Source: an uncultured Coriobacteriia bacterium
GTDB lineage: Bacteria; Actinomycetota; Coriobacteriia; Anaerosomatales; JAAXUF01
NCBI GenBank assembly: GCA_963789515.1
Contig: CAWBKW010000009.1
Coordinates: 31,088-95,087 of the forward strand
Direction of reading: 5' to 3'
Length of the DNA: 64,000 nt
Below, piece by piece: positions 10,658 to 42,112 of the stretch. How positions within the stretch are numbered: the stretch's first letter is position 1; each line of letters opens with the position of its first letter. The translations under genes and the position numbers were made by a program. A model generated the notes under the pieces. It worked only from the letters and a program-made list of their open reading frames with translations. It had not been told where the DNA came from and ran no database searches.

Positions 10658-10838
10658 GGAGGTCTCCTTTCGTGGCCGAAGCCGGTTGCTTTCGGCGGTG
10701 ACAGGTTCCTACCCAAGCCCGTCGCCGGAAGCCGCATCATAGCCGAGCGCAAGGGGCGACGATACACGGTCGCGCGGGTAGACTGATGTCGGCCTCGCAC
10801 GAGCAGGCCGAACGATGCCGGTCGAGGAGGACGTACAG

Positions 10839-12228
10839 ATGAAGAGGCTTTCCCGAACGCTTCCCTTGTTGTTCAGCGGGCTGATGCTGGCGCTGCTGGT
10901 CGCATCTCCTGCGCTGGCTGAACCCGTCCCTGTCGCGGCGGGGAACGCCAGCGTCGCCGCGTTCCCTTCGGCTGAGAACTGCGGATGCCACTCGACGCTC
11001 GTCGATCAGTGGAGCCAGTCCCTGCACCGCCAGGCGCTCGAGGACCCGATCTTCAAGACGAAGGTCGCACAGGCGGACGCCGCCACCAACGGCAAGATCG
11101 GGCCCGTTCTGCAAGAAGTGCCACGGACCCGTCGCCGAGATGACCGGTGAGTCGGGCAAGGACACCGCTGCGATGAGCCCGAGCGCGGCACAGAGCATCG
11201 GGTGCATGTTCTGCCACCAGGCCGTCGGCAACACCGAGCCCCTCGGCAACGTCTCCCAGCTGCTCGAACTGACCCTCACCCGCCGGGCGCAGATCGAGAA
11301 CCCCCAGGCGCCGCATCCCGCCGTCTACTCGCCCTTCCATGCGACCTCGGCGATCTGCGGCGGCTGCCACAACGTGAACCATCCCATCAACGGCATGCAC
11401 CTGGAGTCGACCTACCGAGAGTGGGCTGTGAGCCCGCAGGGCAAGGCCGGCACCCAGTGCCAGGACTGCCACATGAGCCAGAAGCCGGGACAAGTCGGCC
11501 CGTCCACCGGATCGGCCGCGTACGGAGCCCCCGAGCGACCCAATATCTACCAGATGACCTTCACCGGGGCGCAGGTCGCCCTCGGCAATCCGGAACTTGC
11601 CACACAGATGCTCCAGAGTGCCGCGACGCTTGAGATGGATGCGCCCAAGGTGGTCAAGGCCGGGGAAGATGCCTCGGTGACCGTGAAGATCACCAACAGT
11701 GGCGCCGGTCACTACCTCCCGACGGGACTGACGGAGGTCCGCGAGATGTGGCTGGACGTGTCGGTCGTCGACGCTGCCGGAACTGCCACGAGCCTCGGAG
11801 AGCACAAGTTCGGCACCGTACTCAAGGACGCAGCAGGGAAGTACCCCGCCGAGCTGTGGGACGCCGTTGCCGTACAATCCGACGACCGCATACCGCCGAA
11901 GGAGAGCGTGACCCACTCGTACAAGGTCGTCCTTCCGAGCGGGGTCGAAGCAGGCACGCTCAGGGCACAGCTCCTCTACCGCTCAGTCCCCGAGGAGCTT
12001 GCGACCAAGGCGGGGGTGAAGAACCCCACGACGGTGATGGCCTCGGCCCAGCAGCCTGTCTACGCGTCTGCTGAGGCCGAGCAGAAGGCCGCGCAAGACA
12101 CCGGGTCCGCAGAGACCGCCCCGCCCAACGTCTGGCTGATCACGTTCCTCACCGTCCTCGGTGTCGGAGTTCTGGTCCTGCTTGGCGTGCTCTGGTGGCG
12201 CCGTCGCTCCTCAGGCGGGTCGGCCTAG
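10839..12228 (+). CDS. Exported multiheme c-type cytochrome (c554-like, 5 heme motifs) with C-terminal membrane anchor; one frameshift near 11100
   Basis: RBS GAGGAGG, signal peptide; motifs CGCH, CKKCH (restored by removing 1 nt near 11101-11105), CMFCH, CGGCH, CQDCH; GAGHYLPTG; hydrophobic tail ending WWRRRS. Confidence 0.85.
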
Positions 12229-33168: not shown

Positions 33169-33645
33169 GTGAACGACCGATTCGCCGAGAAGCTGGCCGA
33201 CCCCGTCATCGTGCACGACACCACGACGCTGGCGGACTTCGTCCAGATCTACTGCGACGGCCACCACAAGGATGCAGCGCGCAGGTCCGTCGAGACCGAC
33301 GCCGCACAGCTCGGCATCTACGGGCGCAAGCATCCGGTCCTCTGTGCTGAGTGCGAGGCTCACCTGGCATACGCCGAGAAGCGTCGTGCGTACTGCAACC
33401 AGGACCCGAAGCCGTTCTGCGCCTACTGCGAGGTCCACTGCTACAAGAACGACGAGCGCGAGTGGCAGCGCCAGATGATGCGCTACTCGGGTCCCAAGTC
33501 GTGGCGCAAAGGCCATGCGATCGACGGCGTCAAGCACATGCTCGACGGCCGCAAGTACCGAAAGCTCGCCGAGGCCAAGGCCAAGACGGCCGCCGCCGAG
33601 AAGACCGCCGCGCCCGCGGCAGACAACCAGGAGGAATCCCGATGA
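33169..33645 (+). CDS. YgbA-like (nitrous oxide-stimulated promoter family) Cys-rich protein
   Basis: IYCDGHH, LCAEC, YAEKR..C..KPFCAYC..HCY, MRYSGP motifs. Confidence 0.8.
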   Translation: MNDRFAEKLADPVIVHDTTTLADFVQIYCDGHHKDAARRSVETDAAQLGIYGRKHPVLCAECEAHLAYAEKRRAYCNQDPKPFCAYCEVHCYKNDEREWQRQMMRYSGPKSWRKGHAIDGVKHMLDGRKYRKLAEAKAKTAAAEKTAAPAADNQEESR

Positions 33646-34028
33646 GCACAACCGTGACACGCCAGATCGTCCGCATCGACGAGGAGCTCTGCAACGGCTG
33701 CGGCGTGTGCGTCTCGCCGTGCGCCGAAGGCGCGATCGTCATCGTCGACGGCAAGGCCCGCGTCGTGAAGGAAGAGCTGTGCGACGGAGCCGGCTTCTGT
33801 CTCGGCGTCTGCCCGACCGGCGCCCTGACGCTCGAGACCCGCGAGGCCGTCCCCTTCGACCACGACGCGGTCGAGGCGCACGTCGCCGAGCAGCCCAAGA
33901 CCTACATCGCCCAGACCTGCTTCAACTGTGGCCGCTCGGAAGATGACGGCCCGCTGCTGCCGGTCCGCACGCAGGGGACGAGCACGTGGGTCTGCACGCG
34001 CTGCTTGCCGGCACTGATTCACGGGTAG
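33642..34028 (+). CDS. 2x[4Fe-4S] ferredoxin with extra C-terminal CxxC...CxxC domain
   Basis: CNGCGVCVSPC, CDGAGFCLGVCP, CFNC...CTRC. Confidence 0.85.
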   Translation: MSTTVTRQIVRIDEELCNGCGVCVSPCAEGAIVIVDGKARVVKEELCDGAGFCLGVCPTGALTLETREAVPFDHDAVEAHVAEQPKTYIAQTCFNCGRSEDDGPLLPVRTQGTSTWVCTRCLPALIHG

Positions 34029-34040
34029 TCGGCGGGGGTG

Positions 34041-34125
34041 GGGTGCGAGCGCGGGGGTCCGGTGCTCAGACATCCTCGCCGCTTCGCGGCTGCGGAACTG
34101 CGCCCGGACCCCCGCGCTCGCACCC
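34041..34125. repeat. Long intergenic inverted repeat (REP/MITE-like hairpin)
   Basis: 22-bp perfect arms GGGTGCGAGCGCGGGGGTCCGG / CCGGACCCCCGCGCTCGCACCC enclosing the nested hairpin GCCGC-ttc-GCGGC. Confidence 0.75.
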
Positions 34126-34215
34126 TGCTCGCGAAACCCCCAAGACCAACTCCAGAGCGACGCGCAAGCGCCAGATGCCCTGAAGGCCTCTTCCAGAACG
34201 ACGAAAGGATCGCGA

Positions 34216-35877
34216 ATGACCCCGAACGAGAGCGTCATGTTCTGCAACCAGTGCGAGCAGACGGCCCATGGGACCGCCTGCGAGAAGATCGGTGTGTGCG
34301 GCAAGTCGCCGGACGTCTCGGCGTTGCAGGACCTGCTCGTGAATGCCTGCCGCGGCATCTCCATCGTCGCCCTCGACGCCGAGGGGCTCGGTATCGACAC
34401 GTCGGTCGCCGGCGCGTTCGTGGCCGACGCGCTGTTCACCACGCTCACGAACGTCGACTTCGACGCCGAGTCCGTCGCCTCGATCACCCGCGATGGCGTT
34501 GCGCTCCGTGAGGCGCTCAAGGCCGACGTGCGCGAGGCCGGCGGAACGACCTCCTACGACGACCTGTACGCCACGTTCGAACCCGCCGAGTCGACCGCCG
34601 GGCTCATCGCCCAAGGCCGCGAGTTCGGCTCTCCCTGGGACACTTCGCGCGATGCCGACGTGCAGTCGCTTCAGGAGACCACGCTGTACGGCATGAAGGG
34701 CGTCGGCGCATACGAGCATCACGCTCGCGCACTGGGCCACACCGACCCGGTCATCTACAGCTATCTCTTCAAGGCGCTCGCCGCGATGAGCGATGAGAAC
34801 CTCGACCTGAACGCGTGGGTCGGCCTGACGCTCGAGTGCGGTGCGGCGAACCTGCGCACCATGGAGATCCTCGACGCGGCCAACACCGGCGCATACGGCG
34901 ATCCCACGCCCACGTCAGTCTCCCTCGGCCAGCGCAAGGGCAAGGCGATCCTGATCTCCGGCCACGACCTCGCCGACCTCAAGGCGCTGCTCGAGGCCAC
35001 CAAGGGCACCGGCGTCGACGTCTACACCCACGGCGAGATGCTGCCGGCGCACGCGTACCCCGAACTGCACGCCTACGAGAACCTCGCCGGGCACTTCGGC
35101 ACCGCGTGGCAGAACCAGCACAAGGAGTTCCGCGAGTTCCCCGGCGCCATCCTGATGACCACCAACTGCCTGATGATCCCGCACGCCGAGTACAAGAGCC
35201 GCCTGTTCACCAGCGGGCCCGTGCGCTTCCCGGGTGTTCCGCACCTCACACGCGATGACTTCTCGGCTGTCGTCGAGAAGGCGCTCGCCGAGCCGGGATT
35301 CGAGTGGGACACGACCGTCGGCGAGGTTCTCGTCGGCTTCGGCCACAACGCCGTGCTCGCCGTCGCCCCGACCGTCATCGAAGCCGTCAAGAGCGGCGCG
35401 ATTCGCCACTTCTTCCTGGTCGGCGGGTGTGACGGCGCCCGTCCGGGGCGCAACTACTACACCGAGTTCGTCGAGGAGACCCCGAGCGACACCATCGTCA
35501 TGACGCTGGCCTGCGGCAAGTTCCGCTTCTTCGACAAGCAGCTCGGCGAGATCGGCGGTCTTCCGCGCCTCATGGACGTCGGCCAGTGCAACGACGCCTA
35601 CTCGGCGATCAAGATCGCTGTCGCGCTCGCTGACGCGTTCGAGTGCGGCGTCAACGACCTGCCGCTGTCGATGATCCTGTCGTGGTACGAGCAGAAGGCC
35701 GTTGCGATCCTTCTGACCCTGCTCCACCTCGGCATCACCGACATCCGGCTTGGCCCCACCCTGCCGGCGTTCATCACTCCCAACGTCTTGGGCGTGCTCG
35801 TCGAGAACTTCGCGATCAAGCCGATCGCCGCGAGCCCCCGCGAGGACCTCAACGCCATCCTGGGCGAGAAAGCGTAG
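34216..35877 (+). CDS. hcp: Hybrid-cluster protein (hydroxylamine/NO reductase)
   Basis: MFCNQCEQT..C..GVCGK, ILISGHDL, YTHGEMLPAH, TTNC, GGCDG, LACGK, GQCNDAYS, SWYEQKA. Confidence 0.96.
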   Translation: MTPNESVMFCNQCEQTAHGTACEKIGVCGKSPDVSALQDLLVNACRGISIVALDAEGLGIDTSVAGAFVADALFTTLTNVDFDAESVASITRDGVALREALKADVREAGGTTSYDDLYATFEPAESTAGLIAQGREFGSPWDTSRDADVQSLQETTLYGMKGVGAYEHHARALGHTDPVIYSYLFKALAAMSDENLDLNAWVGLTLECGAANLRTMEILDAANTGAYGDPTPTSVSLGQRKGKAILISGHDLADLKALLEATKGTGVDVYTHGEMLPAHAYPELHAYENLAGHFGTAWQNQHKEFREFPGAILMTTNCLMIPHAEYKSRLFTSGPVRFPGVPHLTRDDFSAVVEKALAEPGFEWDTTVGEVLVGFGHNAVLAVAPTVIEAVKSGAIRHFFLVGGCDGARPGRNYYTEFVEETPSDTIVMTLACGKFRFFDKQLGEIGGLPRLMDVGQCNDAYSAIKIAVALADAFECGVNDLPLSMILSWYEQKAVAILLTLLHLGITDIRLGPTLPAFITPNVLGVLVENFAIKPIAASPREDLNAILGEKA

Positions 35878-35883
35878 AGAACG

Positions 35884-36291
35884 ATGTCAGACCTCGATCG
35901 TGATACGACATCAGCAGCCGACGAGAGCGACGACGTCGCAGAGCAGACCGTCGAGTGCGCACCTGCCGGCCCGCGCTGGAAGCGGGTGCTCAAGTGGACC
36001 GCGATCGGTGTCGGCGGCACGCTGGTGTTCCTCGTGTTCGCGGCGTTCATGCTCTACAACTTCGGCGGCATGTGGGGCTCGGTCTACCCCGAGCTCGGCC
36101 CGCAGTACGAGCAGCTGGTGGCGTCCGGTCAGGCCCCTGCGTTGAGGAAGCGCTTCGTCATCCCGATTCCCGGGTGCCAGTGTCACAGCACCGACCCCGT
36201 GCTGACGGCACAGCACTCCAAGCGCCACATGAACGAATGCGGCAAGTGCCACAACACGCGGCCGGCCCACATGGAGCCCGGCGTGCTGTAG
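35884..36291 (+). CDS. Small membrane-anchored putative di-heme cytochrome c (CxCH plus CxxCH)
   Basis: Basic patch and TM helix, then GCQCHST and ECGKCHN; starts 6 nt after the hcp stop. Confidence 0.7.
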   Translation: MSDLDRDTTSAADESDDVAEQTVECAPAGPRWKRVLKWTAIGVGGTLVFLVFAAFMLYNFGGMWGSVYPELGPQYEQLVASGQAPALRKRFVIPIPGCQCHSTDPVLTAQHSKRHMNECGKCHNTRPAHMEPGVL

Positions 36292-36322
36292 GACCTCGCC
36301 TCACAGCACCCGCTCGAGCATC

Positions 36323-36356
36323 GCGGCCCGGCCTCCGGCGACGGAGGCCGGGCCGC
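36323..36356 (+). terminator. Terminator of the hcp operon
   Basis: GCGGCCCGGCCTCCG-gcga-CGGAGGCCGGGCCGC followed by TGTCTT. Confidence 0.75.
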
Positions 36357-36463
36357 TGTCTTCGTGTCGGATTCGGGCGTCCGCACCGCCACTCTCTGCG
36401 CTACCATGGGTCGTGGCGGTCGACGGCCGCCCGTGCCCGCACGAGACCGCGTCGGAGGACCCG

Positions 36464-38305
36464 ATGGCCGAGATCATGCAGCACCTGACCGCGTTGGCTG
36501 ATGAGATCGGCCCGCGTCCGGCGACGAGTGATGCCGAGAGCCGCGCCGCTGACTACATCACGTCGGTGTTCGTGGCGCGCGGGCTCGAACCCGAGACCCA
36601 CGAGTTCGATTCGCCCCGGACCTACTCCTGGGCGTTCGTCATCTACTTCACCCTGACGCTGCTCTCGGCCGTGGTGGCGGGGATCAAGCCCGAGATCGCC
36701 GCGCTGAACTGGGGTGCGCTGCTTGTCTCAGCGGGTGTCGCGGTCTCATTCTGGCTCGACCTCGACACGCGCAGGGGAGGGCTCAGTCGGCTCATGCCCA
36801 AGGGCCCGAGCCAGAACGTCATCGCGCGCCACGTCCCCAAGTCCCGGCGTGGCGAGAAGCTCAAGAAGATCGTCATCGTCGCTCACTACGACACCGCCCG
36901 CGCGTCGCTCGCGTTCTCACCGGGGATGGTGCGTCAGTTCCCGGTGACGTTCGCCCTCATGAAGTGGGCGACGTTCCTCACGCCGGTCCTCATCCTCGCG
37001 ATGGCGACCCCTTGGACCGCCAAGGCCGAGCCGTACCTGTGGTACGTGACGATGGTGCTCGCCGCCTACCTGCTCATTCCGCTGTTCATCAACGTCCAGC
37101 GCGAGCTGATGATGCCGTTCGTCGACGGCGCCAACGACAATGCGTCGGGCGTCGCCGCGATGCTGGGCGTGCTCCACAACCTCGTTTCAGAGCCGGAGGC
37201 TTCGCGCTTCTCGACCTCGCAGTTCGAACCGGTGCAGCGCGGAGCCGAGGCGGCACTCGCCGCCGACGTGGTTCCCGAGGGTGCGCTCCTCTCGTACTCG
37301 CCTGCCGGATCGCGCGACACCGCAAGCGAGCTGCCCGAGGACTTCCGTTGGGCCGAGCCGTCCGGAGAGGCCGCACGTCCTCCCCAGAAGGGCCAGGGCT
37401 TCCTGGAGTTCGGGACGATCGACTTCGCAGCCGTCGGCCCCGAGGCGTCCAAGCCGTCCAAGCCGGAGGAGCCGGTTGCGCCGGAACCGCCTGCACGCTC
37501 GAGCGTTTCTACCGGCCCCGATACGCTGCCCGGCTCGGGTGCCGTACCCGGGAGCGGTGCGACCGAAGACCCGTCGCGCAAGCGCCGCGGGCTTCTCGGC
37601 GGGCTGGGACTCGGCAAGAAGAAGAAGGAAGAGGACCACGACGTCAAAGGTTGGCTCGGGGTCGACGACGAGTTCGACGCTCGCAAGGCGGGCGCCGACA
37701 TCGGGTCGTGGGACAAGTTCGGTGACGGTGACGACGATGACGACGACGGCATCGGCTGGAAGGGCGGCTGGGCGGGCGACGACCCGATCGGCGACGATGA
37801 CTTCTCGGCCAACGAGGCAGCCCGTATCCGCCGCAGGGTCACCGAGTCGGTCGACCGCGAGCTGAGCGAGAAGGAAGTGTGGTTCGTCGCGACCGGTGCC
37901 GAGGAGGTCGGGACCGTCGGCATGCAGGCGTTCCTTGACGACTACGGCGACGAGCTGCGCGACGCGCTCATCATCAACATCGACAACGTGGGCGCCGGTC
38001 AGCTCTCGTGGGTCACCGCTGAGGGCATGGCGCGCCGCTACCGTGCGGCCCAGCGGATCATCGGGCTCGCCAAACGCGCCTCCCGTGAGCGCGAGATCCT
38101 CGTGAAGCCGCGCGTCTTCAAGGGCCTCTCGACCGACGCCACGCCGGCGCTCGCTCGCGGCTTCAAGGCGATGACCCTCATGGCGTTCGACAACTCCGGC
38201 CTGCCGATGAACTGGCACTGGAAGACCGACACGACGGACAACATCGAGCCCGAGGTCGTCGAGCGCGTGGCCGACCTGGTCACCGAGATGATCCGCGAGG
38301 CCTAG
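36464..38305 (+). CDS. Membrane-embedded M28 family metallopeptidase
   Basis: IGPRPATS, VAHYDT, GANDNASG, GAEEVG, NIDNVG, WHWKTD; four TM helices and a long acidic insertion. Confidence 0.85.
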   Translation: MAEIMQHLTALADEIGPRPATSDAESRAADYITSVFVARGLEPETHEFDSPRTYSWAFVIYFTLTLLSAVVAGIKPEIAALNWGALLVSAGVAVSFWLDLDTRRGGLSRLMPKGPSQNVIARHVPKSRRGEKLKKIVIVAHYDTARASLAFSPGMVRQFPVTFALMKWATFLTPVLILAMATPWTAKAEPYLWYVTMVLAAYLLIPLFINVQRELMMPFVDGANDNASGVAAMLGVLHNLVSEPEASRFSTSQFEPVQRGAEAALAADVVPEGALLSYSPAGSRDTASELPEDFRWAEPSGEAARPPQKGQGFLEFGTIDFAAVGPEASKPSKPEEPVAPEPPARSSVSTGPDTLPGSGAVPGSGATEDPSRKRRGLLGGLGLGKKKKEEDHDVKGWLGVDDEFDARKAGADIGSWDKFGDGDDDDDDGIGWKGGWAGDDPIGDDDFSANEAARIRRRVTESVDRELSEKEVWFVATGAEEVGTVGMQAFLDDYGDELRDALIINIDNVGAGQLSWVTAEGMARRYRAAQRIIGLAKRASREREILVKPRVFKGLSTDATPALARGFKAMTLMAFDNSGLPMNWHWKTDTTDNIEPEVVERVADLVTEMIREA

Positions 38306-38329: not shown

Positions 38330-39040
38330 CTAGGGCCAAGCCTCGGGCATCTCCATCTCCTCGATGTCCTCGCCCTCCTCGGCGAGTTCCTCCTCGGCTT
38401 CTGAGAATCCGAGGGGCTCTCCGTGTGGGCGGTGCCACGCGAGCCTGTCGGCGTAGAAGGCCATCGCCGTTCCCACGGTGACGAGTACGGCGCTCGCCGA
38501 GAAGACAGGCAGCATCAGCGGCGAGCGCTGAAGGGCCACGATCACGATTCCGAACACGATGAAGCCGAGGTGCAGCAGGCCGCTGCCGGCCTTGGTGAGC
38601 CGGCCTTGGGTCAGATAGGACGGGCCGCGCACGCCGGCCACGGTCATGACCACCACCGCGACTTGGATCGCCGCCGCCAGGCCCAGGTAGACCGCGAGGC
38701 CGCGGCCCAGGTCCGAACTCGCCACACCTGCCACGACGCCCGCAGCGACCATGGCGACCGAGATCGCCAGGAGCAGTCGTCGCGAGAACAGGCGCTTGGG
38801 CACGCACAGCCCCATCACCACGACGAGCGCCAGGATCTGCGGTGCAGCGATCGCGTTCATCGCGGAGACGTAGGAGGTGTAGCCGGCGCCCTGCTCCCAG
38901 CCGGGGATGGTCTTCTCGGCGAAGAGCACCCAGATGGTGCCGACGAAGGATTGCACGCCGAGCGATGCGAGGAGGATGACCGTGATCACCGTGAGCGCGA
39001 AGTCCCAGGAACGCTGACGGATGTGCTCGATATCGACCAT
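38330..39040 (-). CDS. Membrane protein resembling the C-terminal half of heme lyase CcmF
   Basis: FVGTIW, MNAIAAP..LVVVMGL and GLLHLGF segments parallel CcmF LLGTLLP, FFN..P..LLLG and AHLG; TGATG coupling to the upstream gene. Confidence 0.6.
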   Translation of the reverse strand: MVDIEHIRQRSWDFALTVITVILLASLGVQSFVGTIWVLFAEKTIPGWEQGAGYTSYVSAMNAIAAPQILALVVVMGLCVPKRLFSRRLLLAISVAMVAAGVVAGVASSDLGRGLAVYLGLAAAIQVAVVVMTVAGVRGPSYLTQGRLTKAGSGLLHLGFIVFGIVIVALQRSPLMLPVFSASAVLVTVGTAMAFYADRLAWHRPHGEPLGFSEAEEELAEEGEDIEEMEMPEAWP

Positions 39041-40032
39041 CAGACGACACCTCCTCCGGCGAGGACGGCGGCGGCATAGGAGTGCGCCCCCGGGACCACG
39101 TAGGTCGCGAGATAGGTGAGCACCAGGATGAGGAAGGAGAGGACCGCGAGCGCGGCCACCATCTTCCACATGCCCTGTCGTCGCAGGTAGAGCCGTGCGT
39201 GCAGGTACGCGGTGTAGAGCATCCACATCATGATCGACATGTTGACCTTGCCGGACCACCACCACGCCTCACCCTGCCAGGACATGAGCGCCCACGGGAA
39301 CCCGAGCAGCATGCCGATGGTGAGGGGAAGGTAGCCGAGTCGCGCCCAGCGGTACGCGGTGGTCTCGAAGGCGGAGCGTCGTTGGACGATCATCTGGATG
39401 GTCGCCACGAACGAGATCGTGAACGCTCCGTACGCCAAGAACAGCAGCGGCGGATGCACCCACATGAACCACGCGTTGTAGTAGTAGGTCGCCGCGCTCG
39501 CCATGCCCTCGAAGCCCTGCTGCGCCGCCACCCCGCCCATCGACGTGGCCTGCAGGTAGCCGTAGTACTGGGCGATGAAGCCCGGTAGGGGCCGGGTCAA
39601 GGGCGCACCGATGAGTGCGGCACTCGCCGACAGCCCTGCGACTGCCAGCATGACGCCCGGCAGAAGCTGCTCGCGGTGCCTGCGCATCACGACGCCCATC
39701 AACGCGACGATGAGCGCCCACACGTAGAGCTTCTCGGACTCGACCCACGGCGAGACCGCGACGTGCGTGACGATGCGTCCGGTGGATGGATCGACCACGA
39801 CCGCCAGCTGCCATAGACGCCAGTGAAGCCAGATCAGCAGGCCTTCGCCGCCGACCAGCAGCGCCGCCATGACCCCGAGGGCCCGGCCACGCCATCGAGC
39901 CGCTGAGGGCACGAGCGCGCAGATCGCGAGAAGGAGTGCGGACGTGGCGATCACGGTTTGGAGCGGATAGCCGATCCTCGCGACGGTCGCAAGGAGTTGC
40001 ACGATCGAGTCGTAGGTCAGCAGCGGGTTCAT
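39040..40032 (-). CDS. Cytochrome c biogenesis protein (CcmF/CcsA family, N-terminal half) with divergent WWD loop
   Basis: WVESEKLYVW, VHPPLLFLAY, WALMSWQGEAWWWSGKVN, LYTAYLHAR, GAHSY; leaderless ATG 6 nt after TATACT. Confidence 0.82.
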   Translation of the reverse strand: MNPLLTYDSIVQLLATVARIGYPLQTVIATSALLLAICALVPSAARWRGRALGVMAALLVGGEGLLIWLHWRLWQLAVVVDPSTGRIVTHVAVSPWVESEKLYVWALIVALMGVVMRRHREQLLPGVMLAVAGLSASAALIGAPLTRPLPGFIAQYYGYLQATSMGGVAAQQGFEGMASAATYYYNAWFMWVHPPLLFLAYGAFTISFVATIQMIVQRRSAFETTAYRWARLGYLPLTIGMLLGFPWALMSWQGEAWWWSGKVNMSIMMWMLYTAYLHARLYLRRQGMWKMVAALAVLSFLILVLTYLATYVVPGAHSYAAAVLAGGGVV

Positions 40033-40158
40033 CCTGCCAGTATACGACCGGTCCGGCGGCGTGCGATTTGCTGCCTCCGAGTGTACGCGGGTACACTCGC
40101 GAAGCGCGCCGACCGCCGAATCGGTGCGCGCCTTTGTCCCCGAGCCACCGGAGGCCTG

Positions 40159-41418
40159 GTGAGTCCGAGCCGGCTCAGGAAGCGAATCTCGCGCGCCCTC
40201 ATGGTGTCGTGGAGAGAGCAACCGACGCGCTACGACATCGAAGCGGTACAGGCCAACACGCGCCGCGTGGGGCTTGTCATCCGCGTGCGCTGGGCGTTGC
40301 TCATCGTGCTGGTCATCTACTCGCTGTTGGCCGGCGCGGCCTACATCACGGTGATGCCGTTCAGTGAGTTGGCCTCCCGCATGCTGATTCCTGCGCTCGC
40401 CCTCGGCTTCGTCGCGCTCTACAACACCTTCTATCAGTTCAACTACCGGCGCCTCGGCAACATCGCTGTCTGGAACAACCTGCAACTCGCGCTCGACGCG
40501 CTCGTCGTCACGGTGCTCGTCTACTACTCCGGAGGCGTGAGTTCGTGGTTCTGGTCCATGTACTCACTCTTCATTCTCGAAGCCGCCTTCATCTTGCCCA
40601 GGCGTCGTGACACGTGGGCGTTGGCCCTGCTGTGCATGCTCATCCTCGGGGCCATCGAGGTTTTCGAGCTCCTGGGAATCCTGCCGCACGTCACCATCCC
40701 CTACGCCTCGGCCGAGCAGTATCTCGATCCGGTCTATGTCTCGGTCCGCTACCTCTGGCAGGTGGCCGTGCTCGCCGGAACGGCCGCGGTTGCCACCCAA
40801 CTCGTCGGCGAGCAGAGGGACGAGGCCGCCGGCAGACAGTCGCTCGCGGTGCTCGACGAGACCACCGGGTTGTACTCACGCGCCTACTTCCTGCGCGCGC
40901 TCGGCGCCGAGATCCGTCGCGCACGTCGGGACGCCCGTCCCTTGCACGTCCTGCTCATCGACATCGACTGTTTCGGCGACTTCAATCGCCGCTTCGGCAT
41001 CGACGTCGGTGACCGCCTGCTCGTCCTCATCGCGACCGCGATCACCCGCTGCGTCGCCGAGGCGGGCGACATGCTCGTGACGACCAACCTGGCGGCACGT
41101 TTCGGCGGCGAGGAGTTCGTGATCCTGCTTGCCGAAGACCAGGAGACGCAAGGACCTCCGGACGACAGCGACGCGCTCCGACTTGCGGAATGCCTCCGCA
41201 TCGAGATCGGCGAGCAGAAGGTGGAGGGCGTCGGCGTCACCGTCTCCGTGGGAGTCGCATCGATGCCCACCGACGGAGCGACCTCCGATGAGCTGCTCGA
41301 CGCGGCAGACGGTGCTCTCGCAGCAGCCGTCGACGCCGGTGGTGACCGGGTGGTGATGGCATCTTCGCTGTCGCCGGCATCGTGGGAAGCCGAACTCCTC
41401 GGCGTGCCCGAGGAATAG
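40159..41418 (+). CDS. Membrane-bound diguanylate cyclase (GGDEF domain)
   Basis: Several TM helices, DETTGLYSR, IDIDCF..FN..FG..VGD, ARFGGEEF, VTVSVGV. Confidence 0.88.
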   Translation: MSPSRLRKRISRALMVSWREQPTRYDIEAVQANTRRVGLVIRVRWALLIVLVIYSLLAGAAYITVMPFSELASRMLIPALALGFVALYNTFYQFNYRRLGNIAVWNNLQLALDALVVTVLVYYSGGVSSWFWSMYSLFILEAAFILPRRRDTWALALLCMLILGAIEVFELLGILPHVTIPYASAEQYLDPVYVSVRYLWQVAVLAGTAAVATQLVGEQRDEAAGRQSLAVLDETTGLYSRAYFLRALGAEIRRARRDARPLHVLLIDIDCFGDFNRRFGIDVGDRLLVLIATAITRCVAEAGDMLVTTNLAARFGGEEFVILLAEDQETQGPPDDSDALRLAECLRIEIGEQKVEGVGVTVSVGVASMPTDGATSDELLDAADGALAAAVDAGGDRVVMASSLSPASWEAELLGVPEE

Positions 41419-41419
41419 C

Positions 41420-42112
41420 GTGCGCCACGTCTGGAGCGTCCTGATCGGCTTGGCGCTCGCCGTGTTCGTGGTGGGTCTGGCGCTCGCCCTGCTCACCCAG
41501 CCCTTCTTCACGCGCACTCTTGCCGAGCGCTTTTCGCTTGCCGAGGAGGCCGGACTGCCCCGCGAGCGCATGCTCGACGTCGCCGAGCAGGTCCGCGCGT
41601 TCGTCGCTGACCGTGGGTCCGCGACCCTTCCCGACGTCGTCGACGGCCGCCCCGGCTTCGACGCGCCCTCGGTCAGCCATCTCGCCGACGTCCGGCGCGT
41701 CATCGCCGGCGCTCGCCTCCTGACCTGGGCGCTCGCGATCGTGCTCGCGATCACGCTCGCGACCGCGGTCGCTCGGCGGAGGTTCGACGGGATCGCCGCT
41801 GCGCTTCGCGCAGGGGCCGCCGCGTGCGCGGTGTTCGTCCTACTGACGGTAGTCGCGGGGCTGTTCGACTTCGACGCGCTGTTCTCGTCCTTCCATGGCG
41901 TCTTCTTCGCCGAGGGCACGTGGACGTTCGCCTCGGACTCCCTGCTGATCCAGACGTTTCCCGAGACGTTCTGGGCCACGGCCGCAGCGGTTTGGGCGGG
42001 CCTCGTTCTGCTCGGCGCGGCCCTGCTTGCGTTGGGCGCGAGGGCAGTGAGGGCGTCGCAGGCGGAGGCGTCGAGATCCCGAGGACAAGGCTCGTCGGGG
42101 AATGGGGCGTGA
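41420..42112 (+). CDS. DUF1461/TIGR01906-like membrane protein
   Basis: HLADVR, FDALFSSFHGVFF...W.F...SLLIQTFPETFW. Confidence 0.75.
   Translation: MRHVWSVLIGLALAVFVVGLALALLTQPFFTRTLAERFSLAEEAGLPRERMLDVAEQVRAFVADRGSATLPDVVDGRPGFDAPSVSHLADVRRVIAGARLLTWALAIVLAITLATAVARRRFDGIAAALRAGAAACAVFVLLTVVAGLFDFDALFSSFHGVFFAEGTWTFASDSLLIQTFPETFWATAAAVWAGLVLLGAALLALGARAVRASQAEASRSRGQGSSGNGA

What the first reader, a model, noticed from the sequence alone, without database searches (positions are those of the whole stretch)
38330..40032. Stand-alone split CcmF-like heme lyase with a rewritten WWD loop: candidate dedicated CxCH heme-attachment enzyme
Seen: two translationally coupled membrane-protein genes on their own leaderless transcript, with no ccmABCE/H or resB neighbours in the window. 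Together they carry equivalents of the four conserved CcmF histidines (VHPP, AYLHA and GAHSY in gene 1; LLHLG in gene 2). The substrate-binding loop reads WQGEAWWWSGKVN instead of the canonical WGxxWxWDPxE. Known: dedicated lyase paralogues handle non-standard heme motifs (NrfE/NrfI for CxxCK, Wolinella CcsA1 for CX15CH), and CcmF is split into N and C genes in plant mitochondria. Inference: this divergent pair could mature the CxCH motifs of the two cytochromes in this window, one of which lies about 2 kb away.
Basis: partly seen in the sequence, partly recalled or inferred. Interest (0 to 1): 0.85.

Follow-up and report, generated by a model that had tools for sequence, protein, structure and literature searches.

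The report
Split mini-CcmF haem lyase paralogue
Two overlapping membrane-protein genes together make a shrunken, two-piece relative of the cytochrome c haem lyase CcmF with an altered haem-binding loop, kept beside a normal Ccm system in many cytochrome-rich Coriobacteriia, but genome comparison does not tie it specifically to the unusual CxCH haem motifs.

Summary
Gene 1 (40032..39040, -) is a PF01578 haem-handling protein. Its three CcmF-type histidines are aligned and its WWD loop is rewritten to W..WWWSGKVN. Gene 2 (39040..38330, -) overlaps it by TGATG and has no Pfam or NCBIfam match.

Gene 2 is the membrane core of the CcmF C-terminal half without its periplasmic domain. Three results support this: the top fold hit of 48,161 chains is CcmF 341-630 (Z 12.4); hhalign gives E 1.5e-5; and GSxLLH157LG aligns to the CcmF TM-His2 block. 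A complex model passes (0.69 against 0.00).

The pair is adjacent in every locus with room and occurs in 98 of 146 genomes of the order and in other Actinomycetota classes. In the phylum sample, 16 of 17 pair-bearing genomes also match CcmF_C. The window's own genome has ccmE-F-A-B-C on another contig.

The proposed CxCH specificity is not supported. CxCH modules occur in 69 of 98 genomes with the pair and 32 of 48 without it. The small CxCH cytochrome keeps its motif in 8 of 8 pair-less loci. One hint remains: a pair-less genome with no ResB match has CAACH where relatives have C[TS]CH.

Verdict: a new variant of a known kind (an accessory split CcmF); its substrate is unknown.

The parts
39040..40032 (-). 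Gene 1, 330 aa. It corresponds to the N-terminal half of a CcmF-like haem-handling protein: the PF01578 core, the altered WWD loop, and histidines H193, H278 and H317, plus the family-specific H70.
   Evidence: Translation. Pfam PF01578 at 65.3 bits against a cutoff of 29.9. A profile of the family hits CcmF 6zmq_A at E 9e-7 (query 185-321 to chain 181-322) and CcsBA 7s9y at 7.5e-4. Invariant residues.
38330..39040 (-). Gene 2, 236 aa with 6 predicted TM helices. It corresponds to the membrane core of the CcmF C-terminal half without the periplasmic domain. It carries invariant H157 (GSxLLHLG) and C79 (LC[IV]PKR).
   Evidence: Translation. No Pfam or NCBIfam match. AlphaFold model with pLDDT 86. 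VIA-align top hit is CcmF 6zmq_A, Z 12.4, model 9-197 to chain 341-630. hhalign Prob 79.6, E 1.5e-5.
39241..39279 (-). Codons of the rewritten WWD loop, W252..N264 (WQGEAWWWSGKVN).
   Evidence: Column comparison with 24 CcmF and 5 CcsA-like sequences: D to S, P to G, V to K and E to V, with N kept as in CcmF.
38570..38572 (-). Codon of H157 of gene 2, the proposed TM-His2 (second axial ligand of a membrane haem b).
   Evidence: Invariant in 52 of 52 relatives. In the relaxed hhalign it aligns to the conserved GGyvvHlG block of CcmF.
39199..39201 (-). Codon of H278 of gene 1, the proposed TM-His1.
   Evidence: Aligned with the invariant His of CcmF and CcsA-like sequences.
40039..40044 (-). TATACT, a -10-like hexamer at -12..-7 of the gene 1 ATG. 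It may be the promoter of a leaderless mRNA.
   Evidence: Sequence. The same hexamer lies 6-7 nt before the start in 11 of 17 related loci. Not detected by the generic promoter scan. No transcript data.

Best explanation
The two genes encode the two halves of a miniaturised, split paralogue of the System I cytochrome c synthetase CcmF. Gene 1 is the N-half. It has the tryptophan-rich WWD loop on the outer face, flanked by H193 and H317, and a transmembrane His, H278. Gene 2 is the C-half: six TM helices with the second transmembrane His, H157, and none of CcmF's periplasmic domain.

Inferred mechanism, by analogy with CcmF:
- the two proteins form one membrane complex;
- H278 and H157 hold a haem b in the membrane;
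- the outer loop takes haem from the CxxxY-type CcmE of the resident Ccm system;
- the complex attaches that haem to a subset of apocytochromes.

The changed loop chemistry (WDPVEN in CcmF becomes WS[GP]K[VI]N here, that is two acidic residues lost and one lysine gained) and the missing periplasmic domain suggest a different haem pose or a different client set from the full-length CcmF. That client set is unknown.

Shown: homology, architecture, conservation, distribution. Inferred: complex formation (model only), haem b binding, lyase activity, dependence on CcmE.
For: GENE 1
- It meets PF01578.
- Its family profile aligns H193, H278 and H317 to the P-His1, TM-His and P-His2 positions of CcmF 6zmq (E 9e-7) and CcsBA 7s9y (E 7.5e-4).
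- The columns HPP and ..N match CcmF (24 of 24 rows) and not the CcsA-like rows.
- In a quick ML tree of 57 rows the family is one clade (SH-aLRT 99). It groups with CcmF N-halves (SH-aLRT 92), and CcsA-like proteins fall outside.

GENE 2
- Of 48,161 PDB representatives, the best fold match is CcmF 6zmq_A: Z 12.4, rmsd 5.0, 169 residues, model 9-197 to chain 341-630. That region begins just after the part gene 1 matches. The next hit has Z 9.3 and covers only a helical hairpin.
- hhalign against my 24-sequence CcmF alignment gives Prob 79.6, E 1.5e-5 (gene 2 residues 18-89 to CcmF 371-439).
- With relaxed settings the invariant GSxLLH157LG block aligns to the CcmF GGyvvHlG block.
- A language-model look-alike search gave a CcmF_C cluster at 0.83, which is a lead only.

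COMPLEX MODEL
- Score 0.69, best of 3 controls 0.00. The mark was reached by 58 of 80 solved complexes and 2 of 110 mismatched pairs.
- The runs agree in at least 60% of contacts and the partner pLDDT is at least 70.
- The interface includes the H278 helix of gene 1 and helices 1 and 6 of gene 2.
- CcmF is solved as one chain, so this pass may reflect likeness to that structure.

LINKAGE AND DISTRIBUTION
- Gene 2 follows gene 1 in 20 of 20 loci of the order and in 15 of 15 loci with room from the phylum search.
- No fused form appeared among 110 representatives found without a length filter; the longest was 355 aa.
- Gene 2 is in 98 of 146 genomes of the order and 17 of 301 genomes of a phylum sample.
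- 16 of those 17 also match CcmF_C.
- The own genome has ccmE (CPSKY), a 727-aa ccmF with CcmF_C, ccmA, ccmB and ccmC.

PRECEDENT READ
- ccmF is split into N- and C-segment genes in Methanosarcina acetivorans (PMC9084895, passages).
- ANME archaea carry several CcmF paralogues, including a split one and one sitting beside a particular multihaem cytochrome (PMC9012536, passages).
Against: - No biochemical or expression evidence exists.
- Gene 2 matches no Pfam family, CcmF_C included.
- Foldseek found nothing at E <= 0.001.
- hhalign against a single CcmF sequence gave only 2% probability.
- Z 12.4 lies within the range that helical bundles can reach by arrangement alone, per the tool's own note.
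- The canonical WWD Asp and Glu are replaced, so lyase chemistry may not be retained.
- NCBIfam scores are far below every curated cutoff: CcsB 52.8 against 187.6, and CcmF/NrfE 43.9 against 569.
- The pair is dispensable: 48 of 146 genomes of the order lack it while ccm, where checked, and multihaem cytochromes remain.
- The tree used the quick method and only Actinomycetota sequences, and it flagged long branches.
Confidence: 0.6

Rival explanations
1. One reading: the pair is the dedicated lyase for contracted CxCH haem motifs. A weaker form is that it is one of two interchangeable accessory lyases for CxCH, the other being System II CcsBA paralogues, and that CcmF alone cannot serve CxCH.
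For: CxCH LOOKS LIKE A REAL, RECURRENT SITE IN THESE CYTOCHROMES
- The pattern gives 182 hits in 101 of 146 genomes, against 41 reversed-pattern control hits in 37 genomes (for the table, for the sum of hits; the control count is my own tally of that table).
- Six extracytoplasmic cytochromes of the own genome carry it.
- The small cytochrome family has invariant PGCxCH.
- A CKCH site binds haem in a Kuenenia tetrahaem protein. I saw this only as a passage in the review PMC7096707; the original paper is not held.

THE PAIR-LESS GENOMES MOSTLY HAVE SYSTEM II
- 35 of the 48 pair-less genomes have ResB.
- ResB/CcsA genes sit beside large multihaem cytochromes with 1-3 CxCH motifs in 3 of 3 loci read.

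GENOMES WITH NEITHER PAIR NOR ResB MATCH
- Among genomes at least 90% complete, 5 have neither, and 3 of these have no pattern hit.
- Three of these five (G011, G378, G382) still show 27, 24 and 15 paired-CxxCH hits, so they remain rich in multihaem cytochromes.
- In G011 the C-terminal module of the NapC-like cytochrome reads TCAACH where relatives read YC[TS]CH.

LINKAGE
- The pair lies within 10 kb of the small CxCH cytochrome in 51 of 65 genomes that have both.
Against: - The pair and the CxCH pattern do not co-vary: 69 of 98 against 32 of 48.
- CxCH is kept in 8 of 8 pair-less loci of the small cytochrome and in the C-terminal modules of pair-less G024 and G346.
- G346 (96% complete) has CxCH but neither the pair nor a ResB match.
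- Pair-bearing G060 and G133 (99% complete, 24 and 27 paired-CxxCH hits) have no pattern hit.
- The gene neighbourhood also holds hcp, an M28 peptidase and a GGDEF gene. The pair lies on the opposite strand. The hcp - cytochrome - M28 part persists without the pair.
- The linkage was not seen in the other class: 0 of 2 weak homologues lie on the pair's contig.
- The System-I-only contrast rests on 3-5 related genomes, and the pattern search has a chance hit in about a quarter of genomes.
Confidence: 0.13
2. The pair is a haem-handling membrane complex that is not a cytochrome c synthetase. It could, for example, export, reduce or buffer haem for another acceptor, or act as a regulator of haem supply like the HemX-type PF01578 proteins.
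For: - The WWD Asp and Glu that are invariant in CcmF and in the CcsA-like rows are replaced.
- The CcmF periplasmic domain is absent.
- The family has its own invariant H70 and, in gene 2, C79 near the inner face. CcmF has no counterpart to either.
- The superfamily contains non-lyase members. CcmC is one. A HemX-like copy lies beside sirohaem synthase in this genome.
- The pair is dispensable in cytochrome-rich relatives.
Against: - All four CcmF histidine positions are kept and invariant.
- The pair was found almost only with a ccm system (16 of 17).
- All five pair-bearing genomes checked in other classes carry multihaem cytochromes.
- The tree places the family next to CcmF and not next to CcmC or the HemX-like protein.
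Confidence: 0.2
3. Gene 1 is a divergent CcsA (System II). Gene 2 is an unrelated small partner that replaces ResB and supplies the fourth histidine.
For: - The best NCBIfam hit is CcsB/CcsA, TIGR03144, at 52.8 bits.
- NCBI names some relatives 'CcsA'.
- The PGAHSYAA motif resembles GMHSYAAGE of CcsBA.
- In CcsBA the fourth histidine also comes from the other module. This point is recalled.
Against: - Gene 2's fold and profile matches are to the CcmF C-half.
- The HPP and N264 columns are CcmF-type.
- The tree puts CcsA-like proteins outside the gene 1 + CcmF group.
- The PDB profile E-value is better for CcmF (9e-7) than for CcsBA (7.5e-4).
Confidence: 0.07

Closest known systems
CcmF, the System I cytochrome c synthetase (solved: Thermus thermophilus 6ZMQ)
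   Same: - PF01578 core.
- A Trp-rich outer loop flanked by two histidines, with the HPP and ..N signatures.
- A TM-His after the loop and a second TM-His in a GxxxxHxG block of the C-terminal helices.
- Six C-terminal helices superpose on CcmF 341-630.
   Different: - Two genes instead of one.
- No periplasmic domain in the C-half.
- The loop is WS[GP]K[VI]N instead of WDPVEN.
- An extra invariant H70 and C79.
- 566 aa in total, against 727 aa for the genome's own CcmF.
- Fails the NCBIfam and CcmF_C thresholds.
NrfE, the CcmF paralogue needed for the CXXCK haem of NrfA
   Same: An accessory CcmF-type paralogue kept beside the general CcmF. The idea that a paralogue serves a non-standard site comes from a passage in PMC9012536 and from recall.
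   Different: NrfE is full-length and is encoded with nrfFG and nrfA. Here there are no partner genes, no CXXCK cytochrome was noticed among the own genome's cytochrome ORFs, and no client is identified.
Split and duplicated archaeal CcmF: Methanosarcina acetivorans ccmF1/ccmF2, and ANME 'CcmF3' (split) and 'CcmF2' (beside MHC-B)
   Same: ccmF is divided into N- and C-segment genes in one operon, in a CcmH-less system with CxxxY-type CcmE. The organisms are rich in multihaem cytochromes and carry extra CcmF paralogues (PMC9084895 and PMC9012536, passages read; own CcmE = CPSKY).
   Different: - In M. acetivorans the split genes are the only CcmF, and the genome matches CcmF_C (control line).
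- Here the split pair is extra to a full-length CcmF, and its C-half is too divergent for CcmF_C and lacks the periplasmic domain.
- Relatedness to the archaeal split forms was not tested. One look-alike cluster was commonest in Methanobacteriota, which is a lead only.
System II CcsBA paralogues dedicated to special sites (Wolinella NrfI, CcsA1)
   Same: The concept of dedicated lyases for odd motifs. NrfI is cited in a passage of PMC7096707; CcsA1 is recalled. In this order, ResB/CcsA paralogues sit beside cytochromes that carry CxCH.
   Different: They belong to a different branch of the superfamily: canonical WGRYWGWDP[IV]ET loops and a large ResB partner.
Plant mitochondrial CcmFN1/N2/C
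   Same: CcmF encoded in pieces (recalled, not tested).
   Different: There the pieces together form the organelle's only CcmF and keep the canonical motifs (recalled).

Membership tests
Haem-handling protein superfamily (Pfam PF01578, Cytochrom_C_asm) | Match to PF01578 above the gathering score | tested here: met
   Gene 1 scores 65.3 bits against 29.9, over residues 101-312.
Haem-handling protein superfamily (Pfam PF01578, Cytochrom_C_asm) | Trp-rich external loop flanked by two conserved histidines | tested here: met
   W247, W252, W257 and W258 are invariant and W259 nearly so. H193 and H317 are aligned to the His columns of CcmF and CcsA-like rows.
CcmF/NrfE (TIGR00353; Pfam CcmF_C PF16327) | Curated NCBIfam score for CcmF/NrfE | tested here: not met
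   43.9 bits against a cutoff of 569.05, and only residues 192-313 match.
CcmF/NrfE (TIGR00353; Pfam CcmF_C PF16327) | CcmF_C domain in the C-terminal half | tested here: not met
   No Pfam hit for gene 2 or for any of 52 relatives. Homology shows only by hhalign (E 1.5e-5) and by fold (Z 12.4).
CcmF/NrfE (TIGR00353; Pfam CcmF_C PF16327) | Canonical WWD motif W-G-G-x-W-x-W-D-P-V-E-N | tested here: not met
   D is replaced by S in 24 of 26 family members, E by V, I or L in 26 of 26, and V by K or N. All 24 CcmF rows keep D, V and E.
CcmF/NrfE (TIGR00353; Pfam CcmF_C PF16327) | Four conserved histidines (P-His1, TM-His1, P-His2, TM-His2) | tested here: met
   H193, H278 and H317 are aligned by HMMER and MAFFT. 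H157 of gene 2 aligns to the CcmF HxG block only in the relaxed hhalign. All four are invariant.
CcmF/NrfE (TIGR00353; Pfam CcmF_C PF16327) | Single polypeptide with a periplasmic domain between the last TM helices | tested here: not met
   Two genes, with no fused form among 110 representatives. The model has a 6-residue loop where CcmF has its domain.
CcmF/NrfE (TIGR00353; Pfam CcmF_C PF16327) | Binds haem b and attaches haem from holo-CcmE to apocytochrome | not testable with these tools
   Needs biochemistry.
CcsA/ResC (System II, TIGR03144) | Curated NCBIfam score, and a ResB/CcsB partner | tested here: not met
   52.8 bits against 187.6. No ResB match in the own genome, which is 83% complete. 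The tree and signature columns favour CcmF.
   69 of 98 against 32 of 48 genomes carry the CxCH pattern. CxCH is kept in 8 of 8 pair-less loci.

The most novel reading that the evidence does not exclude
Contracted CxCH haem sites, here widespread in the multihaem cytochromes of anaerobic Actinomycetota, cannot be made by the general CcmF. They need an accessory lyase. This split mini-CcmF, with its charge-reversed WWD loop, is the System I solution. Co-encoded CcsBA paralogues are the System II solution. Lineages that lose both convert the site back to CxxCH, as in genome G011.
Probability: 0.13. Interest if true: 0.8.

Novelty: new variant of a known kind. Interest (0 to 1): 0.5.

Why it matters
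Specialists know dedicated lyase paralogues (NrfE, NrfI, CcsA1) and split CcmF in archaea and plant mitochondria. A bacterial two-gene mini-CcmF differs in four ways: it lacks the periplasmic domain, it has lost the WWD acidic residues, it sits beside a full CcmF, and its C-half is filed as 'hypothetical protein' with no Pfam family.

- It would define the minimal membrane core of a CcmF-type enzyme.
- It gives a natural variant of the haem-binding loop to test what that loop does.
- It assigns a function class to a gene family seen in hundreds of metagenomic proteins: 625 at E <= 0.001 among 8,000 scored candidates.
- It yields a testable system for a separate open question, namely which machinery matures contracted CxCH sites. 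These genomes offer CxCH and CxxCH versions of the same module, and three lyase types in different combinations.

Tried and rejected
NEGATIVE OR WEAK SEARCHES ON GENE 2
- Pfam and NCBIfam: no match.
- PDB profile search at E <= 10: none.
- Foldseek against the PDB: nothing at E <= 0.001.
- hhalign against one CcmF sequence: 2% probability. This was superseded by the 24-sequence alignment.

TAXONOMY OF DISTANT GENE 2 RELATIVES
- One scan with P0203 found no relative.
- The profile search listed only close Coriobacteriia relatives, all named 'hypothetical protein'.
- The range outside Actinomycetota is therefore untested.

EXPRESSION AND COMPLEX
- No RNA holder was listed, and read laying was not used.
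- Complex prediction was busy once. The same request was resent and answered.

REJECTED: NEIGHBOURHOOD AS PROOF OF FUNCTION
- The block is hcp - cytochrome - M28 - pair - GGDEF.
- Parts of it persist without the pair.

REJECTED: STRICT CxCH DEPENDENCE

CAVEATS ON THE PATTERN SEARCHES
- They do not enforce reading frame.
- They catch only CxCH lying 5-15 residues after a CxxCH.
- Reversed-pattern controls gave 41 hits in 37 of 146 genomes (my count), so single hits are noisy.
- The one hit in G382 reads CTCCHRLRCHPVLCDCH and looks atypical.

LITERATURE
- Searches found no description of this pair, or of CxCH in Coriobacteriia, in the held library.
- I did not test whether the window's order is that order.
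- The original CKCH paper (JBC 2019) is not held.
- Supplements were not consulted. The CcmF trees and alignments of PMC9012536 and PMC9084895 may bear on relatedness to the archaeal split forms.

UNPUBLISHED GENOMES
- The phylum-sample tallies (17 of 301, 134 of 301, 16 of 17) include eleven genomes flagged unpublished: G188, G088, G058, G278, G128, G160, G265, G041, G122, G214, G307.
- None of them is among the 17 pair-bearing genomes.
- Their loci (L054, L057, L060, L063, L066, L070, L071) were left out of my CcmF alignment, the hhalign runs and the tree.
Full report
WHAT IS THERE

On the minus strand, gene 1 (40032..39040, 330 aa) and gene 2 (39040..38330, 236 aa) overlap by one base, TGATG.
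- VHPP (H193), WQGEAWWWSGKVN (252-264), AYLHA (H278) and GAHSY (H317) in gene 1;
- LLHLG (H157) in gene 2.

A TATACT hexamer lies at -12..-7 of the ATG. It recurs 6-7 nt before the start in 11 of 17 related loci, and within 45 nt in 15 of 17. A leaderless mRNA is therefore plausible. The generic promoter scan found nothing, and no RNA run was listed.

The window's genome is 2.5 Mb in 10 contigs, 83% complete. Its ccmE, ccmF (727 aa, with CcmF_C), ccmA, ccmB and ccmC lie on another contig, together with a HemX-like PF01578 gene beside sirohaem synthase. It has no ResB match. Its CcmE carries CPSKY, the CxxxY type.

GENE 1

- It meets Pfam PF01578 (65.3 bits against 29.9) but falls far below every NCBIfam cutoff. 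The best are CcsB at 52.8 against 187.6 and CcmF/NrfE at 43.9 against 569.
- A profile of 14 relatives hits two solved proteins: CcmF of Thermus thermophilus (6zmq, E 9e-7, query 185-321 to chain 181-322) and CcsBA (7s9y, E 7.5e-4). H193, H278 and H317 fall on their conserved histidines.
- Across 26 family members from two classes, H70, H193, H278, H317, W257, W258 and N264 are invariant.
- I compared columns with 24 CcmF and 5 canonical CcsA-like proteins of the phylum. The family shares HPP and the final N of the loop with CcmF (CcsA-like rows have HV. and T). It replaces the otherwise invariant D (by S in 24 of 26), V (by K or N) and E (by V, I or L). In this order P also becomes G.
- H70 has no counterpart in CcmF.
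- A quick ML tree (57 rows, LG+G4) makes the family one clade (SH-aLRT 99) and groups it with CcmF N-halves (SH-aLRT 92), with CcsA-like proteins outside. The tool flagged long branches, and sampling is limited to Actinomycetota.

GENE 2

- It has no Pfam, NCBIfam or PDB sequence match, alone or as a 52-member alignment.
- A search of 1.84 billion representatives without a length filter found 110 relatives at E <= 0.001. All were at most 355 aa, so no fused form and no full-length CcmF was reached.
- C79 (LC[IV]PKR), G152, S153, H157 (GSxLLHLG) and G190 are invariant.
- An AlphaFold model (pLDDT 86) has six TM helices.
- Foldseek found nothing. An exhaustive alignment to 48,161 PDB representatives put CcmF 6zmq_A first: Z 12.4, rmsd 5.0, 169 residues, model 9-197 to chain 341-630. 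The next hit, at Z 9.3, covers only the first hairpin. The tool warns that helical bundles can reach such Z values by arrangement alone. Even so, the matched region begins just after the part of CcmF that gene 1 matches.
- hhalign against one CcmF sequence was uninformative at 2%. Against my alignment of 24 CcmF sequences it gave Prob 79.6, E 1.5e-5 (gene 2 residues 18-89 to CcmF 371-439).
- With relaxed settings the GSxLLH157LG block aligned with confidence to the CcmF GGyvvHlG block, and the last helix aligned to CcmF's last helix. The CcmF periplasmic domain is simply missing.
- A language-model look-alike search gave a CcmF_C cluster at 0.83, and a 215-aa unnamed cluster commonest in Methanobacteriota at 0.92. 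Both are leads only.

THE PAIR AS A UNIT

- Gene 2 follows gene 1 in 20 of 20 loci of the order and in 15 of 15 loci with room from the phylum search. Two further loci began at a contig end.
- A complex model of both proteins with two haems scored 0.69, best of 3 controls 0.00. The mark was reached by 58 of 80 solved complexes and 2 of 110 mismatched pairs. The runs agree in at least 60% of contacts and the partner pLDDT is at least 70.
- The interface joins the H278 helix and its neighbours of gene 1 to helices 1 and 6 of gene 2.
- CcmF is solved as a single chain, so this pass may reflect that likeness. It supports binding but does not show it.

DISTRIBUTION

- Gene 1 was found in 38 of 41 relatives.
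- Gene 2 was found in 98 of all 146 genomes held for the order and in 17 of 301 genomes sampled across the phylum. Outside the order the matches lie in other classes, not in the other families of the same class that were sampled.
- 16 of those 17 also match CcmF_C.
- The phylum tallies include eleven genomes flagged unpublished. None of them bears the pair, and their loci were left out of my alignments.
- Three pair-less genomes that I checked lack both genes but keep ccmF and ccmC-type genes.
- NCBI names some gene 1 relatives 'CcsA'. Listed gene 2 relatives are 'hypothetical protein'.

TESTING THE CxCH IDEA

CxCH is a real feature of these cytochromes.
- In the own genome it occurs in six extracytoplasmic cytochromes. 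Three NapC-like multihaem proteins end in ...C.KCHP(8-10 residues)[YF]C[TS]CH.... Three proteins carry C[QGI]CHS[TS].
- The pattern CxxCH-x5-15-CxCH gives 182 hits in 101 of 146 genomes, against 41 reversed-pattern hits in 37 genomes (for the table, for the sum of hits; control tally mine).
- The small cytochrome at 35884..36291 belongs to a family with invariant IPGCxCH..DP...H.......C..CH. A cytochrome with the same module occurs in another class.
- A review passage states that CKCH binds haem in a Kuenenia tetrahaem protein (PMC7096707). The original paper is not held.

The pair does not co-vary with CxCH.
- The pattern occurs in 69 of 98 pair-bearing and 32 of 48 pair-less genomes.
- In the first sample of 101 genomes, the small cytochrome is found in 65 of 75 pair-bearing and 15 of 26 pair-less genomes.
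- CxCH is intact in 8 of 8 pair-less loci translated.
- The C-terminal modules of pair-less G024 and G346 keep C[TS]CH.
- Pair-bearing G060 and G133 show no pattern hit despite 24 and 27 paired-CxxCH hits.

The 2-kb proximity is real but weak evidence.
- 51 of 65 genomes with both genes have them within 10 kb, with a median distance of 2.6 kb.
- The block is hcp - cytochrome - M28 peptidase - pair (opposite strand) - GGDEF. The hcp - cytochrome - M28 part stays together in genomes without the pair.

WHAT KEEPS A WEAKER VERSION ALIVE

- ResB (System II) is in 104 of 146 genomes, in up to 5 copies.
- 35 of the 48 pair-less genomes have it.
- In 3 of 3 loci read, ResB and a canonical CcsA (WGRYWGWD) sit beside large multihaem cytochromes with 1-3 CxCH motifs.
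- Only 13 genomes have neither the pair nor a ResB match. Five of these are at least 90% complete, and three of the five have no pattern hit.
- Three of the five (G011, G378, G382) are still rich in multihaem cytochromes, with 27, 24 and 15 paired-CxxCH hits.
- In G011 the orthologous C-terminal module reads ...FACVNCHPNGYSTYTCAACH..., where G000 reads ...FACTKCHPGSGKGPGHFCSCH....
- That swap argues that CxCH is a haem site. It is also what one would expect if CcmF alone cannot serve it.
- Against this, the contrast is one clear event among related genomes. G346 (96% complete) has CxCH with neither accessory system found. The pattern search is noisy.

COMPARISON WITH WHAT IS KNOWN

- Split ccmF genes are described in Methanosarcina acetivorans, where they are the only CcmF (PMC9084895, passages).
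- ANME archaea carry several CcmF paralogues, one split and one always beside a giant cytochrome. The authors suggest client specialisation by analogy with NrfE (PMC9012536, passages).
- The present pair is the same kind of thing in bacteria, with four differences: it is extra to a full-length CcmF, its C-half lacks the periplasmic domain and escapes CcmF_C, its WWD loop has lost both acidic residues and gained a lysine, and it has its own invariant H70 and C79.
- My four literature searches found no description of it.

VERDICT

The structural interpretation, a split CcmF-like protein, is supported. The functional interpretation, a dedicated CxCH lyase, is not supported by co-occurrence and remains a minority possibility in a redundant form.

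The most likely reading is an accessory, two-subunit mini-CcmF that works with the resident Ccm system on an unknown subset of clients.

Noticed in passing
own genome contig C4:128383-129288, C4:300461-301831, C4:301901-303670; locus L119 (G011): Three NapC-like multihaem cytochromes (8, 14 and 23 CxxCH motifs) end in a conserved module, GEHS..S..C.KCHP(8-10 residues)[YF]C[TS]CH..N.P.DD. In genome G011, which has neither the pair nor a ResB match, the orthologous module ends in TCAACH. The same site is thus CxCH in one genome and CxxCH in another.
   Followed up: partly
loci L116 (G381), L117 (G372), L118 (G389): ResB plus a canonical CcsA (WGRYWGWD or WGRYWSWD) lie next to large multihaem cytochromes (718-1164 aa, 9-15 CxxCH) that carry 1-3 CxCH motifs. 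ResB is found in 104 of 146 genomes of the order, with up to 5 copies. These System II paralogues are rival candidates for CxCH maturation.
   Followed up: partly
window 33169..38305: A conserved block: a YgbA_NO-family gene, a 4Fe-4S ferredoxin, hcp (34216..35877), the small membrane-anchored CxCH/CxxCH cytochrome (35884..36291), then an M28 peptidase with a long membrane and low-complexity N-half (36413..38305). hcp lies directly upstream of the cytochrome in most loci read across the order. An extracytoplasmic cytochrome paired with a cytoplasmic Hcp is unexplained.
   Followed up: partly
window 10815..12228: A multihaem cytochrome gene appears frame-broken. The signal peptide and CGCHST are in one frame (10815..11150). 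CKKCH, CMFCH, CGGCH, CQDCH and a C-terminal TM helix are in another. The switch is near 11090, in a GGGCCCG run. It is either an assembly indel or a pseudogene.
   Followed up: partly
own genome contig C2, locus L005:5742-6437: CcmE carries CPSKY, a CxxxY-type haem-binding motif rather than HxxxY. This is the variant System I known from archaea and some anaerobic bacteria. The cluster order is ccmE-ccmF-ccmA-ccmB-ccmC. I did not search for CcmH.
   Followed up: no
own genome contig C2, locus L005:11255-12802: A fourth PF01578 protein (280 aa) lies directly upstream of a sirohaem synthase-like gene (NAD_binding_7 + Sirohm_synth_M). The arrangement is HemX-like.
   Followed up: no
own genome: The genome is very rich in multihaem cytochromes: 48 stop-to-stop ORFs with at least 2 CxxCH (some are overlapping frames), with up to 23 motifs in one protein. 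Many Cx3CH and Cx4CH variants are present as well.
   Followed up: no
window 40261..42112: Divergent from the pair lie a membrane GGDEF diguanylate cyclase (40261..41418) and a Lit-family lipoprotein intramolecular transacylase (41420..42112). The GGDEF neighbour recurs beside the pair in 15-18 of 35 loci, by my clustering of flanking ORFs.
   Followed up: no
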